A DNA stretch of 60,856 bases, counting the filler, from Globobulimina sp. (lineage: Eukaryota): the NCBI GenBank assembly GCA_003354225.1. It is 18 parts of 18 records of this genome, joined end to end, with 100 filler letters (N's around TTAATTAATTAA, not from the genome) between each part and the next. Parts side by side here need not be neighbours in the genome. Positions count along the whole stretch, not along the records: positions 3,389 to 6,676 come from PIVH01003181.1; 17 more parts are not named here. One strand, written 5' to 3'. Shown here piece after piece: positions 2-7,086 of this stretch; position 1 is the first letter of the stretch, and each line of letters opens with the position of its first letter. Under the pieces are notes generated by a model that was not told where the DNA came from, made no database searches, and saw nothing but the letters and a program-made list of their open reading frames with translations. A program made the position numbers and the translations under genes.

Positions 2-1897
2 AACGCAGTTTGTGTGGGATGTATAATGAAAGCATTGATTGACAATGGATTAAATGAAGAGGCATTGAACATATACGATCAACAAATGCTGACACACTCA
101 AATATTAATAATGTTGTTCAGTTATTGGCGCTTAAAGCTTCTCGGAATGCAAATAAGTTGGAAAAAGGAATATTAATCCATGAAAGTCTTAACTTATATG
201 ATTCTGTGGATGCATTGCTAGTAAGTGCATGCATTGATTTTTATGGTAAATTTGGTCAAATTGAACAAGCAGAAAAAATATTTAATACACTGCAGGATAA
301 GGATAAAAGTGTTGGTATTATTGATTGTATGATGACAGTTTATATAAATAATGGTGGAAATAAACAAGCGTTATATTTGTATGATAAATTCAATCAACTT
401 CATGATAACATTTCGCATGTTTTAGCCTTCAAAGCTTGTATCAATGCGAATGATTTTGATAAAGGGTTACAAATTCATGCCCAATTAAAACAAATTGATA
501 TATTTATCAACACCGTTTTGATTGATTTTTATGGCAAATTTGGTCACATTCAGTCCGCATTAGAAATATTTAATTCAATACCAAATAATCAGAAAACAAT
601 TGTGGTTATAAATGCTTTAATGCAAGCTCATATTCATTGTGATTTAAACCACGAAGCAATTAATTTGTTTCAGAAATTATATGAATACGAATGTAGTGAT
701 TATAACCATATAAAAGCAGACATTGTATCGTATAAAACTATATTGAAAGCATGTAATAATGCAATGTTTATACAATTTGGACATGAATTACACACAAAAT
801 TATTAGAGGATAAACAGAATGAAAATATATTGAAAGATGCTGAGATTGCCACTCATTTAATAAATATGTACGGGCAAAGTGGATTAATTGAAGAATGTGA
901 ATCTGTATTTGCATCATTTGATGACTGCAACAGTATAAATGTATCACTATATAAAGCAATGTTGAATGTATATGGTATGGTTGGCGATATTGACAAAGCA
1001 ATGGATTTGTATCACAAAATGTCGGCTCAACACATTGATACAGGAATATATATCCGTTTATTGAAATGTTGCGCAGCCGTTGGAGATATGGACATGGCTC
1101 AACATATTTGGTCAGATCTTCTGGATGCTGCTATCAAATGTGATGAGTTTATAATGGGTGCTTACATCGATTGCATGGCAAGGAAAGGTTTATTGCAAAA
1201 TGCCTTGACATTTATGAAAGACTATGACTATAAATATGAATCAGGATGGTTATCATTGATGAGCTCATGCCGGAAATATAGAAATATGGAGCTTGGTGAG
1301 ACTGTTTATAACGAAATTAATACATTGTTTGAAACAAATATAAATGCTATGAGTTGCGCGTCTGCTTTGATGTCACATTTATATGTCTCACAATTGGAGT
1401 TTGATAAACAGAGTGAAATACGAAATAATATGCAGAGAAATGGTTGGATTCCAAAACAAGGCAAAACAGAGATATATGTGGATGGGACATTGCATGTATT
1501 TCAATCAGGTGCAGGAATTGATGATATTTATTTTAATAATAAAGAAGTCGAATTGTATCGAATGATTGATGCAAAATTGGATGAATTATGTGTGGAATTG
1601 AGGCATAAATATGGATTCAAACATGATTATACAATGCTTACAAGGAAATGTGATGATGATAATATACGGAATAATGAGTTGAAAAGACATGGCGAGAAAC
1701 AAGCGCTGGTATATGGATTATTGAGTATATCTGAAGAAAATCCGATTATAATTAAAAATAGCATGAGGATATGTAATGATTGTCATGATTTTATGAAATC
1801 TGTGTCACACTTAACAAATAGGAAAATTACAATCGCAGATCCGAATCGAGTACATGTGTTTGTGAATGGTTGTTGTAGCTGTAATGATTTTTATTGA
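2..1897 (+). CDS. PLS-type pentatricopeptide repeat protein with E and DYW (cytidine deaminase) domains; 5'-partial
   Basis: Frame is open from the contig start. Repeated motifs such as 'LIDFYGKFGHIQSALEIFNSI' and 'ALKAC..AN..DKG..IH'. E-like 'GWLSLMSSCRKYRNMELG'. PG-box-like 'PKQGKTEIYVDGTLHVFQSG'. Zn-deaminase HxE 'RHGEKQALVYGL' plus CxxC 'MRICNDCHDFMK'. C-terminus 'HVFVNGCCSCNDFY'. Confidence 0.95.
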   Translation, partial: NAVCVGCIMKALIDNGLNEEALNIYDQQMLTHSNINNVVQLLALKASRNANKLEKGILIHESLNLYDSVDALLVSACIDFYGKFGQIEQAEKIFNTLQDKDKSVGIIDCMMTVYINNGGNKQALYLYDKFNQLHDNISHVLAFKACINANDFDKGLQIHAQLKQIDIFINTVLIDFYGKFGHIQSALEIFNSIPNNQKTIVVINALMQAHIHCDLNHEAINLFQKLYEYECSDYNHIKADIVSYKTILKACNNAMFIQFGHELHTKLLEDKQNENILKDAEIATHLINMYGQSGLIEECESVFASFDDCNSINVSLYKAMLNVYGMVGDIDKAMDLYHKMSAQHIDTGIYIRLLKCCAAVGDMDMAQHIWSDLLDAAIKCDEFIMGAYIDCMARKGLLQNALTFMKDYDYKYESGWLSLMSSCRKYRNMELGETVYNEINTLFETNINAMSCASALMSHLYVSQLEFDKQSEIRNNMQRNGWIPKQGKTEIYVDGTLHVFQSGAGIDDIYFNNKEVELYRMIDAKLDELCVELRHKYGFKHDYTMLTRKCDDDNIRNNELKRHGEKQALVYGLLSISEENPIIIKNSMRICNDCHDFMKSVSHLTNRKITIADPNRVHVFVNGCCSCNDFY

Positions 1898-3241: not shown

Positions 3242-3725
3242 GTTTCATTCAGATTTGTCAGCAACAATAATAATTATTTTTGTATTTGNNNNNNNNNNNN
3301 NNNNNNNNNNNNNNNNNNNNNNNNNNNNNNNNTTAATTAATTAANNNNNNNNNNNNNNNNNNNNNNNNNNNNNNNNNNNNNNNNNNNNATATCTAATGAT
3401 TCTTTAAATATTAGGGATTAAAACTCTTCACAGGCATCTGAGCTGACCTACTCAATACTTCTTTATATCGGTAAATCATATTCCAGATATTAGATAAGGT
3501 ATTATTTTTAATAAGAAATGTCAATGAATTAATTGTGTACAAGCAAACCTATGCAGTAACCAAACCATTGTTAAACAATTCATCTGTATGTTGTACAAAC
3601 ACCACCTATACAAATACCAATTAATCCAACACTATAAATTATAGTCCAACGCGAAACTAAATGATAAAAATGCAGCTCATTCACATTCGCATTCAAATCT
3701 AATCGAAACGGAAAATGTTTCTTTC

Positions 3726-6676
3726 ATGGGCATGGTTGGATGGTTATTGTGGAAAAATTATAAACAACAATTTCTGCGCAGGAAAAAATCGTGGATCATC
3801 AAAATGTTGTTACCAATCATATTTACGTGTATTTTAGGTGCGTTACGCACGGCATTCAACATCAAAAATGAACCGATTGACTACGGCAACGAACAAGACA
3901 TTTTCAGCTTGGATGACATTTCAATGCCAATGGCACTGCCAATCTCATCCATTGATTCCATCCATGTGCGTTACTCATTGAACCAGCCGTGGGCCATAAG
4001 TCCGTTTACCGCACAAAGCAAGATATTCATCACTATGCCGCTCTGTGTTATGAATTGGACCGCTCCCGCTTCCTTTATTGGCATTGTCAAGCCGTCGAAG
4101 AATGTCCACCACGTCCAAGCCGTCTTAGATATAATGCAACAAAGATGGAGCCATCAAGGCCCGCCTCCGCAGCACGTGGTAGATACTGGACACTGCTACG
4201 AATATGCCACGGAATTACCATTCGAAGAAGGTACTGTTACTGCAATATCCTCGCACCCTCGCACTCCGTTTACATGTTGTTTTAATGTGTTATAAATTCA
4301 AAGGTTGGTTGCTCAAATATTTCGATTCCGACCATGCATTGGATAAATATTGCAGAAGAAGCGAGTATGGGAAAGGCTACGCTGTGTATAACCGATCCAA
4401 CGCGGAAGCGATGAAGAATCGGCCAATAGCGTTTGCGGTGTCATTCGCAGCACCGAGTGATGACGGATTGAGCTGGTCGTACCGACTGCGGTTCAATGCC
4501 TCCGGAGACTCCATGGCCTCGCAACAAGGCGGCAGTGGCCCTCCTTCGCCATTTGATGGCACATTGTTTCCCGTTCCAAGCACGGACCAGCCGAATATCA
4601 ACGATTTTAACCCCAAACTATCGGATCAATGGCGAGCTGGCACAGGGAATTATTACTATTCTTTTTTCATTCATATCCAAAACTATATCGATGCTGCCAT
4701 CAATGAGTACGTTGCGACGCAGTCCGGCGTTGATCAGCAAAGAGTGGAGGAAATCAATTCGATGACCAGAGGTTTCTTTGTGTTCCCCACTCCGAGCTAC
4801 ACGACTGACGATTTTTGGTTTACCATCACGGGCTTGTTTGTGTTTTTTATTCTGATCGCTTTCGTGTATCCATACTCTCAGATCGTCAAAGCTTTGGTGG
4901 AGGAGAAAGCTGCTAAAATCAAAGAAGGAATGAAAATGATGGGAGCTACTTTTGCGACCTTTTGGGTGTCATGGTATATTTGGTTCTTTTTCGAGTTTGT
5001 GATCATGGCGTTTTGTTGGACTTTTTTGGGGAAAGCATTGGATGTCTTCAAGTACAGCAATGTATGGATTATATTAATCTGGATGTTGCTGTTTTGTATC
5101 AATTCAGTGACCTACGCCACTTTGGTCAGCACCATTTTCGACAATCCGAAGGTTGCTTCGCTGATTGGCGTCTTTATGTTTATCATTGCGTTGTATGGCG
5201 GCTTTTTTAGTGTGGTTATGAATGATCAGCAAAAAGTTGCTCTGTGCTTATTAGGGCCGTCGTGTTACAGCATCAGTCTGTTGAATTTGGGGCAATATGA
5301 ACAAGCATTGATTGGCTTGCAATGGGATAATATATGGGATAAATATGACGGTTTTGCATTCATTACAACATTTTATATGTTGGCGTTTGATTCTGTTTTG
5401 TATATCTTATTGACATTGTATATGGATCAGGTTTTTCCGTCGCGTTACGGACAGCGAAAGTCGCCGTTCTTTATATGTTTGCCCTCATTTTGGTGTCCAA
5501 AGAGGAGAAAAGTACAATCATTGGAGCTGTCCAGTAATGCCTTAGCATTGCATGAAACAGACAACTTTGAAGATATTAATGATTCATTTAAAAACACGTC
5601 GCCATCCATTGCCATTCGCCGGTTAACAAAGCACTTTTCGTCTATTACTGGTTCCAAAGTGGTGCAGGCTGTCAACAGCATATCATTGGACGTGTACAGC
5701 GGAGAGGTTTTCTGCTTATTGGGGCATAACGGCGCAGGGAAGACCACCACTATTAATATGCTAACCGGCTTATTGGATGTCACTGATGGCAATGCGTGGA
5801 TATTAGGCAACAGCATAGCTGCGGGAATGCGGCAGATTCGAACCTCGTTAGGTGTCTGTCCGCAGCACGACGTATTATTTAAGAGGTTAACTGTTCGCGA
5901 ACATTTTGAACTGTTTTGCAGATTAAAAGGAGTGCCCGCTCATTTAATTAAATCTGAAGTGGATCAAACTATCCACGACGTTGGCTTAAAAGATAAAGAA
6001 TACGATTTCCCACCAAATATGTCTGGTGGACAGAAAAGAAAATTGTCATTAGGCATTGCGTTGATTGGTGGCTCAAAAATTGTATTTTTAGACGAACCAA
6101 CGAGTGGCATGGTATGTTTATATTTGACGTGTTTTTATTGTGATTCATTGCAAAATATAACAGGACCCACAGAGTCGGCGGGTAACCTGGGAATTAATTG
6201 CGAGAGAGAAGAAAAATCGGTGCATCGTACTGACAACGCATTTCATGGTATTTTTATGTTTGATATCAATGTGTTTTCCACTGCGACTTATTGCAAAATA
6301 TAACAGGACGAAGCGGATATATTAGCAGACCGAATCGCCATTATGTCGACTGGCTATATTCGCTGTTGTGGCAGTGCCTTATTTTTAAAAAGATTGTATG
6401 GAGTTGGTAGGTGCAAATCTATTACATTTTTCATTTTTGAATTAATTATATTACCAAATTAAACGCACAAAAGGTTACACATTCAGCATCTCATTGGAAA
6501 TTGGCATGGACCCTCAGCACATTCGAGAAAAGGTGGACGACATTGTTTTGTCTCAAATATCGGGCTCCTCACTTATATCCATAGCCGGCGGCGAGTTGGC
6601 ATATCGATTACCATTCGAAGCAACTGGTTCCTTTCCCGATGTATTTGAGCAACTTGAAAAATCCAAAAAAGATTTG
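3726..6676 (+). CDS. ABCA-subfamily ABC transporter, 3'-partial. Exons 3726-4230, 4304-6111, 6164-6247, 6307-6406, 6474-6676
   Basis: 'LLWKNY...RR' N-terminus, '[15 protein letters not shown]', Walker [15 protein letters not shown], signature MSGGQKRKL. Removing four GT-AG introns restores '[14 protein letters not shown]', '[19 protein letters not shown]' and '[11 protein letters not shown]' in frame. Confidence 0.95.
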
Positions 6677-6809
6677 NNNNNNNNNNNNNNNNNNNNNNNN
6701 NNNNNNNNNNNNNNNNNNNNTTAATTAATTAANNNNNNNNNNNNNNNNNNNNNNNNNNNNNNNNNNNNNNNNNNNNTAGTACATCAATAATCTACACAAT
6801 TAGAGTAAT

Positions 6810-6985
6810 TTATATAATTTATATGATTTATATTTGCCACTCAAAATTTACTCTAGTAACAGGCTCTAAGTGTTAGATAATTTATACAAATTTACCTACA
6901 GTATATGATTTATATGATTTATATGATTTGTATTTACCACTAAAAATTAACTCTAGTAACATTCTCTAAGTTTTCTATAATTTAT
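6810..6985. repeat. Imperfect 100-bp tandem duplication with ATGATTTAT micro-repeats
   Basis: 'atgatttatatttgccactcaaaatttactctagtaacaggctctaagt' recurs 100 bp later as 'atgatttgtatttaccactaaaaattaactctagtaacattctctaagt'. Confidence 0.85.
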
Positions 6986-7086
6986 AAGATTTATGTGATT
7001 TGTAAGAATTTTCTAATTTAGAGTTAGTAAACTGTAGTGATTTTTTTTAGCAAAAAAATATCCTTGCACAACTGTATCCCTTCTGT

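What the first reader, a model, noticed from the sequence alone, without database searches (positions are those of the whole stretch)
6112..6306. Two neighbouring introns are homologous and sit in the same CATG|GAC context
Seen: intron 6112-6163 (gtatgtttatatttgacgtgtttttattgtgattcattgcaaaatataacag) and intron 6248-6306 (gtatttttatgtttgatatcaatgtgttttccactgcgacttattgcaaaatataacag). They share an identical 17-nt 3' end and near-identical 5' ends, and the middle differs mostly by C/T transitions plus one indel. Both are phase 0 between Met and Asp codons, while the flanking exons (Walker B/D-loop versus H-loop) are otherwise unrelated. Inference: recent intron gain by copying (introner-like element, reverse splicing or microhomology-guided conversion), which is rarely caught directly.
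Basis: partly seen in the sequence, partly recalled or inferred. Interest (0 to 1): 0.72.

Follow-up and report, generated by a model that had tools for sequence, protein, structure and literature searches.

The report
Intron copied within a foraminiferal gene
Two tiny introns 84 bases apart in a transporter gene of a foraminifer-like protist are copies of one another, which gives a clean, datable example of a gene gaining (or overwriting) an intron by duplicating its neighbour.

Summary
Introns 6112-6163 (I1, 52 nt) and 6248-6306 (I2, 59 nt) align at 45 of 52 columns. They share an exact 17-nt 3' end, and 6 of 7 mismatches are transitions. None of 5000 shuffles reached the alignment score. 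Contigs from three public runs skip both introns exactly at GT..AG.

The 17-mer is not a general acceptor motif. No other match with up to 3 mismatches exists in the 60.8-kb window, and the gene's three other introns are unrelated.

The gene is an ABCA-type transporter. Its closest named relatives are Bolivina argentea and Reticulomyxa filosa, both foraminifera.

Read-through ORFs of eight genomic relatives in that clade all lack an intron at the I1 site. Four carry one at the I2 site. I2 is therefore probably the donor and I1 a recent copy, placed at a second CATG|GAC site.

Caveats:
- Distant ABCA genes also carry introns at the I1 site, so overwriting of an old intron is not excluded.
- No whole genome was available, so a dispersed family is untested.
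- The mechanism, DNA microhomology copying or spliceosomal transposition, is inferred.

This is a new member of a known kind, same-gene intron duplication.

The parts
3389..6676 (+). One separate assembly piece (3288 nt) holding the 5' part of an ABCA-type ABC transporter gene: N-terminal region, membrane domain and first nucleotide-binding domain.
   Evidence: Pfam finds ABC2_membrane_3 (2.1e-24) and ABC_tran (1.6e-30). Homologues are named ABCA. The spliced frame is open for 927 aa.
3586..3644 (+). Intron a (59 nt, GT..AG), unrelated to I1 and I2.
   Evidence: Skipped by contigs of X1 and X3. Alignment scores to I1 and I2 are 2 and 3.
4231..4303 (+). Intron b (73 nt, GT..AG after the +3 shift of the cut), unrelated to I1 and I2.
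   Evidence: Skipped by contigs of X1, X3 and X6. Scores to I1 and I2 are -5 and -7.
6108..6111 (+). CATG, the last four exon bases before I1 (Gly-Met of the D-loop SGMD).
6112..6163 (+). Intron I1 (52 nt), phase 0 between Met and Asp, just after Walker B and inside the D-loop motif. It is the inferred new copy.
   Evidence: Sequence. Skipped by 2 contigs of X1, 1 of X3 and 1 of X6. It is 45/52 identical to I2. The site is empty in 8 of 8 genomic relatives of the clade.
6164..6247 (+). 84-nt exon of 28 codons (DPQSRR...TTHFM) between the two homologous introns. It starts with GAC and ends with CATG.
   Evidence: An X3 contig covers 6163-6246 with joints on both sides.
6248..6306 (+). Intron I2 (59 nt), phase 0 between Met and Asp of the H-loop region (TTHFM|DEAD). 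It is the inferred donor and sits at the older position.
   Evidence: Sequence. Skipped by 2 contigs of X1, 1 of X3 and 2 of X6. Four close relatives break at the same point with a Val (GT) read-through.
6307..6309 (+). GAC, the first exon bases after I2. The same three bases follow I1 at 6164-6166.
6407..6473 (+). Intron e (67 nt, GT..AG), unrelated to I1 and I2.
   Evidence: Skipped by contigs of X1, X3 and X6. Scores to I1 and I2 are 15 and 5.
6505..6511 (+). Third and last CATGGAC in the coding sequence of this piece (a second GMDPQ). It carries no intron.
   Evidence: CATGGAC occurs 3 times in 2781 spliced coding bases. Two occurrences are the I1 and I2 junctions.

Best explanation
I1 and I2 are two copies of one spliceosomal intron. 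I2 sits at the older position (TTHFM|DEAD).

A copy of I2 was placed 136 bp upstream, at the next place in the gene that reads CATG|GAC (SGM|DPQ). This created I1. Both copies are now spliced, and they have since drifted apart by 7 substitutions and two small indels.

The route I think most likely is at the DNA level. A break inside CATG^GAC was repaired by microhomology-primed, templated synthesis:
1. The ...CATG 3' end annealed to the CATG in front of I2.
2. A polymerase copied I2 through to GAC.
3. The new end re-annealed to the GAC at the break.

This leaves the donor in place and gives an exact intron-sized insert with no target-site duplication.

My odds:
- Common origin by copying: about 0.95.
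- I1 is the new intron: about 0.7.
- The DNA microhomology route rather than a spliceosomal one: about 0.4 overall.

Shown: homology, splicing, identical flanks, and the states of relatives. Inferred: the direction of copying and the mechanism.
For: Homology: 45/52 identity, an exact 17-nt end, 6 of 7 mismatches are transitions, and 0 of 5000 shuffles reach the score.

Splicing: contigs of X1, X3 and X6 (three studies) skip exactly 6112-6163 and 6248-6306 together with the three other GT..AG introns.

Not a consensus: no further match to the 17-mer with up to 3 mismatches in 60,856 bases. The other introns score 15 or less against 60. blastn-short finds nothing beyond 12-16-nt chance matches, E >= 0.12.

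Direction: in the foraminiferal ABCA clade (17 rows, support 92/89, containing Bolivina and Reticulomyxa), 8 of 8 relatives that show read-through introns are contiguous across SGMDPQ. Four of the 7 that cover the I2 site break right after TTHFM with Val (P0011, P0171, P0241, P0247). Their intron starts differ from each other and from ours, so I1-I2 similarity is much younger than those splits.

Site choice: CATGGAC occurs only 3 times in 2781 coding bases, and two of them carry the copies. A randomly placed copy would hit such a site about 2 times in 2780. A mechanism that needs identity with the donor's flanks explains this directly.

Donor: I2 is retained 84 nt away. That fits templated DNA copying better than recombination with a cDNA made from spliced mRNA.

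Plausibility: templated insertions at microhomologies are an established repair outcome (passages read in PMC7407515).
Against: - No DNA of any relative could be read. The intron states of relatives are inferred from where protein homology stops and a Val-initiated tail begins.
- The I1 site carries an intron in 7 distant ABCA fragments, and one of them (P0312) has both sites occupied. Shared positions in distant species are mostly taken to be conserved rather than parallel gains (passages in PMC3488318).
- The tree has only 113 columns and is largely unresolved inside the clade.
- The M-D codons at both sites are fixed by protein motifs. Beyond ATG-GA only two extra bases (C at -4, C at +3) match, so the identical context is weaker evidence than 7 bases suggests if both sites are old.
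- Templated insertions are usually shorter than 52-59 nt (recalled, not checked).
- Nothing here excludes reverse splicing directly into DNA or RNA.
- The run types are not on record, so 'spliced' rests on contigs that lack all five introns.
Confidence: 0.4

Rival explanations
1. Spliceosomal intron transposition. The excised I2 (lariat-intron spliceosome) reverse-spliced either into the gene's own transcript, followed by reverse transcription and short-tract recombination, or directly into single-stranded DNA of an R-loop at the same gene. This created I1 at SGM|DPQ.
For: - The insert is exactly one intron, in the sense orientation, in the same transcription unit, 136 bp from the donor, with no target-site duplication.
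- This is the textbook reading of homologous introns (PMC3443670, passages; PMC3609843, passages).
- Two transposition events were captured in yeast, and R-loop insertion has been proposed (as cited in PMC10996645, passages). The R-loop variant keeps the donor.
Against: - The spliceosome has no known way to recognise the donor's own exon flanks. The identical CATG|GAC context (3 such sites in 2781 nt) is then a coincidence or the result of later selection.
- The cDNA route should tend to erase I2 and intron e, yet both are still there.
- No reverse transcriptase or RNA intermediate can be tested here.
Confidence: 0.28
2. Both positions are old ABCA intron positions. The window's gene kept an intron at SGM|D that its relatives lost, and its sequence was recently overwritten by a copy of I2 (or the reverse), through transposition into an existing intron position or through conversion.
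For: - Seven distant ABCA fragments break right after DEPTSGM with Val: P0262, P0271, P0280, P0287, P0288, P0312, P0319.
- Five distant fragments break after TTHxM. P0312 has both sites occupied.
- Reviews state that most suspected transposition events in Mycosphaerella hit pre-existing intron positions (PMC3443670) and that parallel gain explains only 5-10% of shared positions (PMC3488318).
Against: - All 8 genomic relatives inside the foraminiferal clade have the I1 site empty. These include the three at 79-81% identity that still keep the I2-site intron. At least two independent losses are therefore needed.
- Most other fetched ABCA proteins are also contiguous at this site: 372 instances in 301 of 336 proteins. 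Many of these are spliced models and say nothing.
- Conversion between two unrelated introns has nothing to start from except 4+3 bases.
Confidence: 0.17
3. I1 and I2 are two members of a dispersed introner-like family with many copies elsewhere in the genome. Their proximity is incidental or reflects local hopping.
For: - Introner families with median lengths down to 30 nt and as few as 5 copies per genome are described, and they are more common in aquatic organisms (PMC9860276, passages).
- The whole genome could not be searched, and the sample is only about 59 kb.
Against: - There is no third copy in the window.
- There are no exact matches to the two-ended pattern in metagenome contigs or genome contigs. 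These collections probably do not hold this organism, so this is weak evidence.
- Neither intron folds better than shuffles, z 0.38 and 0.25, unlike fungal ILEs (PMC3609843).
- There is no target-site duplication and no Rfam match.
- The main text of PMC9860276 does not mention Rhizaria or foraminifera; its supplements are closed.
Confidence: 0.12
4. The likeness is chance among short AT-rich introns or shared splicing signals, or it is an assembly artefact.
For: The introns are short and AT-rich. Two matches to the 17-mer at up to 3 mismatches are not in themselves unusual for the window: 33 of 100 shuffles give 2 or more. The piece comes from a fragmented assembly, and no independent DNA reads cover the introns.
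Against: - 0 of 5000 shuffles reach the alignment score.
- The matches are exact rather than 3-mismatch.
- Three other introns of the same gene share nothing with them.
- 6 of 7 mismatches are transitions (about 0.007 by chance if one third of random mismatches are transitions; my arithmetic).
- The copies differ at 7 sites and two indels, so an assembler did not paste one twice.
- Both junctions are bridged by spliced contigs, so extra sequence does sit at both places.
Confidence: 0.03

Closest known systems
Same-gene intron duplications (SGD) described in fungi (Collemare, van der Burgt & de Wit 2013, PMC3609843; passages read)
   Same: These are near-identical spliceosomal introns duplicated within one gene. 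In about half of the fungal cases the flanking exons are not duplicated, and those cases are read as transposition within the same transcript or transfer between paralogues. Numbers are low: 82 members in 24 fungi, and three in C. elegans as cited there.
   Different: The host here is a foraminifer-like rhizarian. The donor and the copy can be told apart through relatives. The two sites share an identical 4+3-base exon context only 84 nt apart, a detail I did not see in the passages read.
Intron transposition by reverse splicing (Oikopleura dioica, Mycosphaerella graminicola; review PMC3443670, passages; PMC4122922, passage)
   Same: Homologous introns sit at different positions, the insert is exact with ready-made splice signals, and the orientation is sense.
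   Different: That model predicts no dependence on the donor's own exon flanks. Here the flanks are identical. The RNA intermediate is untestable here. The review counted 14 unambiguous events up to 2012.
Introners and introner-like elements (Micromonas, fungi, 175 of 3325 genomes; PMC9860276; PMC3609843)
   Same: These are introns that are copies of each other, with similarity reaching both splice sites, and they are short and non-coding.
   Different: Introners are defined by many copies in unrelated genes. ILEs have stable predicted structures, and many introners have transposon features. Here two copies are known, both in one gene, with no structure and no target-site duplication. Copy number in the genome is unknown.
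[quoted passage not shown]
   Same: The gain is at the DNA level, at a break, with short sequence identities at the junctions. The inserted DNA is copied from nearby sequence.
   Different: The reported DSB-repair gains carry short direct repeats and inserts of unclear origin. Here the insert is a complete pre-existing intron of the same gene, and the 'repeats' are the donor's own flanks. I found no paper describing this combination in the two searches made for it.
Tandem genomic duplication across AGGT (review PMC3443670)
   Same: It is a local duplication within a gene that creates a new intron.
   Different: That model makes the new intron out of duplicated exon sequence, and the duplicate is adjacent. 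Here the 84-nt exon between the copies and the outer exons are unrelated.

Membership tests
Spliceosomal GT-AG intron | GT at the 5' end and AG at the 3' end, interrupting an otherwise open reading frame. | tested here: met
   Removing the five segments gives one open frame of 927 aa with intact Walker B, D-loop and H-loop motifs.
Spliceosomal GT-AG intron | Absent from transcripts at exactly these bounds. | tested here: met
   The joints 6110>6163 and 6246>6306 (cut +1) appear in contigs of X1, X3 and X6, and the same contigs skip the other introns. The run type is not on record ('?' or 'RNA?'), so these are cDNA-like contigs rather than proven RNA.
Same-gene intron duplication (SGD) | Two introns of one gene that are near-identical beyond chance. 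| tested here: met
   45/52 identical; 0 of 5000 shuffles reach the score; other pairs score 15 or less against 60.
Same-gene intron duplication (SGD) | Non-segmental type: the flanking exons are not duplicated. | tested here: met
   The flanks share only CATG and GAC (plus ACG at -12..-10). The encoded peptides are different ABC motifs.
Introner / introner-like element family | Many copies in unrelated genes of the same genome. | tested here: inconclusive
   There is no third copy in 60.8 kb. No genome is held. The pattern scans of metagenome contigs and genome contigs found nothing, but these collections probably lack the organism.
Introner / introner-like element family | Stable predicted secondary structure (fungal ILEs). 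| tested here: not met
   minimum free energy -5.6 and -5.7 kcal/mol, z 0.38 and 0.25 against shuffles.
Introner / introner-like element family | Transposon marks: target-site duplication or terminal inverted repeats. | tested here: not met
   No duplication at the junctions beyond a single G. The weak end complementarity is not better than shuffles.
Intron transposition by reverse splicing | An RNA intermediate: excised intron re-inserted by the spliceosome, followed by reverse transcription. | not testable with these tools
   Only the end product is visible.
Newly gained intron (lineage-specific position) | The position is empty in the closest relatives' genomic DNA. | tested here: met
   All 8 genomic read-through ORFs of the clade are contiguous across SGMDPQ. 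The states are inferred from protein, no DNA was seen, and the true orthologue's genomic state is unknown (P0007 is a transcript).
Newly gained intron (lineage-specific position) | The position is not used in more distant homologues. | tested here: not met
   7 distant ABCA fragments break after DEPTSGM with Val.
ABCA-type ABC transporter (host gene) | ABC-2-type membrane domain followed by an ABC ATPase domain; homologues annotated as ABCA. | tested here: met
   The piece ends inside the gene, so the second half was not seen.

The most novel reading that the evidence does not exclude
Protein conservation channels intron gain. Both the D-loop (SGM|D) and the H-loop (HxM|D) of ABCA ATPase domains must read ATG|GA. 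An intron sitting at one junction can therefore repeatedly seed a copy at the other through that fixed microhomology. The scattered I1-site introns of unrelated eukaryote lineages would then be independent repeats of the event caught here. One example is P0312, with both sites occupied, beside its sister P0320, with only the H-loop site occupied. If so, some 'conserved' intron positions would be parallel, homology-guided duplications.
Probability: 0.1. Interest if true: 0.75.

Novelty: new member of a known kind. Interest (0 to 1): 0.5.

Why it matters
How new spliceosomal introns arise is still argued, mostly from old and blurred cases. A 2012 review counted 14 unambiguous transposition events (PMC3443670).

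In this case the donor, the copy, the exact landing site and the approximate age can all be read from the sequence. The lineage is foraminifera, for which I found no report of intron duplication in the searches made.

The identical 4+3-base flanks make a concrete and testable distinction between a homology-guided DNA route and a spliceosomal route.

The limits are plain. This is one pair in one gene of a fragmented assembly. Same-gene duplications are already documented in fungi, C. elegans and Oikopleura, so it adds a clean example rather than a new principle.

Tried and rejected
- **Sequencing runs.** No RNA holder is listed. All four runs laid are contigs of unrecorded type. None shows the intron sequences themselves, so retention, splicing efficiency and DNA-level presence or absence could not be read.
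- **Pattern scans.** Scans for the two-ended intron pattern found 0 matches in metagenome contigs and 0 in genome contigs.
- **Protein-guided scans for relatives' DNA.** The scan of metagenome contigs returned only one relative, at 26% identity. The scan of genome contigs returned only prokaryotic ABC ATPases at 44% or less.
- **Protein searches.** Three searches aimed at read-through ORFs found no relative whose ORF continues from SGM into an I1-like tail. The window's own ORF is not in that database either, so this is weak negative evidence.
- **Crude ORF-joining intron predictor.** Run on all 18 pieces, it gave 154 candidates, mostly false. None came within 5 mismatches of the 17-mer apart from the I1 row, and it mis-called I2's acceptor. 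I use it only as a loose control.
- **Small RNA in the introns.** Rfam gave only two sub-threshold chance hits, and the folds are no better than shuffles.
- **Earlier notes of this scan.** Nothing relevant: archaeal tRNA introns and an unrelated pilus operon.
- **Rotifer origin.** This was my first guess, from AT-richness, short introns and a PPR-DYW gene. I dropped it once the homologues pointed to foraminifera.
- **P0312's two read-through introns.** Comparing them as peptides showed no clear likeness. This cannot be decided without DNA.
Full report
**What the window is.** The 60,856-base window is not one locus. It consists of 18 pieces of 3284-3288 bases, sorted by length and joined by N44-TTAATTAATTAA-N44 spacers. 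These are evidently separate contigs of a fragmented assembly. The finding lies in piece 2 (3389-6676). No whole genome is held. Everything below therefore rests on this piece, the other 17 pieces as a sample of the same genome, public run contigs and protein databases.

**The gene and the organism.** The piece carries the 5' part of an ABCA-type transporter gene. Pfam finds ABC2_membrane_3 and ABC_tran, and homologues are named ABCA1/3/5. After removal of five short GT..AG segments the frame is open for 927 codons.
- The closest database proteins are a transcript-derived protein at 82% identity (87% in a 113-aa core). Its source accession names the foraminifer Bolivina argentea.
- Next come unnamed environmental ORFs at 76-81%.
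- Reticulomyxa filosa proteins follow at 65-73%.

The organism is therefore a foraminifer or a close rhizarian relative. A table in PMC13746701 (passage) gives R. filosa about 2 introns per gene with a mean length of 87 bp, in line with the 52-73-nt introns here.

**Check of the observation.**
- The global alignment has 45 identities in 52 aligned columns plus 7 gap columns. Of 7 mismatches, 6 are transitions. The score is 60, against 7.9 +/- 6.7 (maximum 32) for 5000 shuffles, and none reached it.
- The last 17 bases are identical, and the first 16 match at 14.
- At least two indels are needed, not one.
- Both introns are in phase 0 between Met and Asp: SGM|DPQ just after Walker B, and TTHFM|DEAD at the H-loop.
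- Both sit in CATG|GAC.

**Are they real introns?** I laid the contigs of four public runs on the piece.
- Contigs of X1, X3 and X6 (three studies) join 6110>6163 and 6246>6306 (cut +1, GT..AG). The same contigs also skip 3586-3644, 4231-4303 and 6407-6473.
- X8 shows only diverged paralogue transcripts.
- The library type of these runs is not on record. Contigs that lack all five introns are what cDNA looks like.
- No contig listed covers the intron sequences themselves, so there is no independent DNA confirmation of them.

**Is the likeness a splicing consensus or a common repeat?** It is neither.
- The 17-mer has no other match with up to 3 mismatches on either strand of the window.
- The three other RNA-supported introns of the same gene score -7 to 15 against I1 and I2, where I1-I2 scores 60.
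- blastn-short with both introns finds only 12-16-nt chance matches elsewhere, E >= 0.12.
- There is no Rfam family, and the folds are no better than shuffles, z 0.38 and 0.25.

**Which copy is older?** I could not reach any relative's DNA. Some database proteins, however, are ORFs called on genomic contigs that read straight through introns. In these, homology stops abruptly and a tail starting with Val (GT...) follows, sometimes with the next exon in another frame.

Eight members of the clade show such marks. The clade contains our gene, Bolivina and Reticulomyxa (17 rows, support 92/89). The tree has 113 columns and 32 hand-picked rows, one further row was dropped as too short, and the inside of the clade is poorly resolved.
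- All 8 are contiguous across SGMDPQ, so the I1 site is empty: P0011, P0171, P0241, P0247, P0122, P0123, P0248, P0243.
- Of the 7 that reach the I2 site, 4 break exactly after TTHFM: P0011, P0171, P0241, P0247. These include the three closest genomic relatives, at 79-81%.
- The other 3 are contiguous at the I2 site: P0122, P0123, P0248.
- The four I2-site tails begin differently from each other and from ours. Intron sequence at this site therefore turns over fast, and the 87% identity of I1 and I2 must be much younger than those splits.
- No ORF in three searches continues from SGM into an I1-like tail.

The simplest reading is that I2 is at the older position and I1 is a recent copy of it.

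**A result against a simple 'new position' story.** Among all 336 fetched ABCA proteins:
- 7 distant fragments break right after DEPTSGM with Val: P0262, P0271, P0280, P0287, P0288, P0312, P0319.
- 5 distant ones break after TTHxM: P0292, P0312, P0317, P0320, P0323.
- P0312 has both sites occupied, while its sister P0320 has only the second.
- Their best named matches are stramenopiles, animals or fungi, not foraminifera.

Both junctions are therefore used elsewhere in eukaryotes. A review holds that shared positions mostly reflect conservation, with parallel gain explaining 5-10% (PMC3488318, passages). Most suspected transposition events in Mycosphaerella hit existing intron positions (PMC3443670, passages). 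I therefore keep 'old position, sequence overwritten' as a live rival at about 0.17. It needs at least two losses inside the clade.

**The landing site.** CATGGAC occurs three times in the 2781 spliced coding bases of the piece. Two occurrences are the I1 and I2 junctions. The third (6505, a second GMDPQ) is intron-free. A copy placed at random would land in such a site about 2 times in 2780. Part of the identity is forced by the Met-Asp codons, so the argument is strongest if I1 is truly new.

**Mechanism (inferred).** Three routes give an exact, sense-oriented, intron-sized insert:
- (a) Repair of a break in CATG^GAC by microhomology-primed templated synthesis that copies I2 from 136 bp away.
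- (b) Reverse splicing into the transcript, followed by reverse transcription and recombination.
- (c) Reverse splicing into R-loop DNA (PMC10996645, passages).

Route (a) explains the donor-identical flanks and the retained donor without further assumptions. Templated insertions at microhomologies are an established repair outcome (PMC7407515, passages). Route (b) should tend to erase I2 and the next intron. Routes (b) and (c) give no reason for donor-like flanks. I therefore rank (a) first at about 0.4 and (b)+(c) at about 0.28. Sequence alone cannot decide.

**Comparison with what is known.** The closest described category is the 'same-gene duplication' of introns in fungi. There are 82 members in 24 species, and half of them lack exon duplication. 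Three cases in C. elegans are cited there (PMC3609843, passages).

Homologous introns read as transposition are reported for Oikopleura and Mycosphaerella (PMC3443670; PMC4122922).

Introners differ by definition, because they have many copies in unrelated genes (PMC9860276). Our pair fails the structure and transposon-mark tests, and the copy-number test could not be run.

In the searches I made I found no report of intron duplication in foraminifera, and none of an intron copied between microhomologies. For these papers I saw search listings and the passages named, not whole texts. Supplements were closed.

**Verdict.** This is a clean new example of a known but rarely well-resolved phenomenon, in a poorly sampled lineage, and its landing-site detail makes the mechanism testable. 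It remains one pair in one gene, with the genome-wide and orthologue checks still open.

Noticed in passing
window 1-60856 (spacers at e.g. 3289-3388, 6677-6776): The window is a chain of 18 separate pieces of 3284-3288 bases, sorted by length and joined by N44-TTAATTAATTAA-N44. Neighbouring pieces are not neighbours in the genome.
   Followed up: yes
window 2-1897 (+): An open frame of 631 aa with PPR repeats and a C-terminal DYW nucleic-acid deaminase domain (Pfam 3.5e-23). This is the type of protein that drives organellar C-to-U RNA editing in plants and a few protists, and is worth a look in a foraminifer.
   Followed up: no
window 6112 joined to 6306 (run X1): One low-depth contig (depth 3.3, 37 bases on the shorter side) joins the start of I1 to the end of I2. 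This would skip the 84-nt in-frame exon between the two look-alike introns. It may equally be a paralogue or an alignment artefact at 80% likeness.
   Followed up: no
proteins P0268, P0279, P0310 (R. filosa), P0097, P0244, P0250, P0101, P0303, P0307, P0261, P0289: Around Walker B, relatives break at many different points: after FLD, DEPT, DEPTS, DEPTSG, and one base into the Asp codon. Intron positions in this 6-codon stretch are unusually varied between lineages.
   Followed up: partly
proteins P0312/P0337/P0338 versus P0320: In a distant lineage nearest to a labyrinthulomycete protein, one gene has introns at both the D-loop and H-loop Met|Asp junctions, and its sister gene only at the H-loop one. 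This is the same pattern as in the window.
   Followed up: partly
window 6503-6513 versus 6106-6111 + 6164-6168: The 11-mer GGCATGGACCC, encoding GMDP(Q), occurs twice in the coding sequence: once split by I1 and once uninterrupted 340 bases downstream.
   Followed up: no
window 6780-7000: The start of piece 3 holds a run of imperfect tandem copies of an AT-rich unit (ATTTATATGATTTATAT-like) together with a repeated 'ctctagtaacaggctctaagt'-like segment.
   Followed up: no
proteins P0121 and P0118: Two proteins labelled by their source as from a bacterial and an archaeal MAG are typical eukaryotic ABCA fragments. P0121 is 69% identical to the Bolivina protein, and P0118 ends in an intron-like read-through. 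Eukaryotic contigs were probably binned into prokaryotic MAGs.
   Followed up: no
runs X1, X3, X6, X8 on window 6024-6250: Several diverged paralogue transcripts (under 90% alike) of the same ABCA domain are present in the same runs (loose ends at 6101, 6112 and 6248). The organism therefore has a family of these genes whose intron states would be informative.
   Followed up: no
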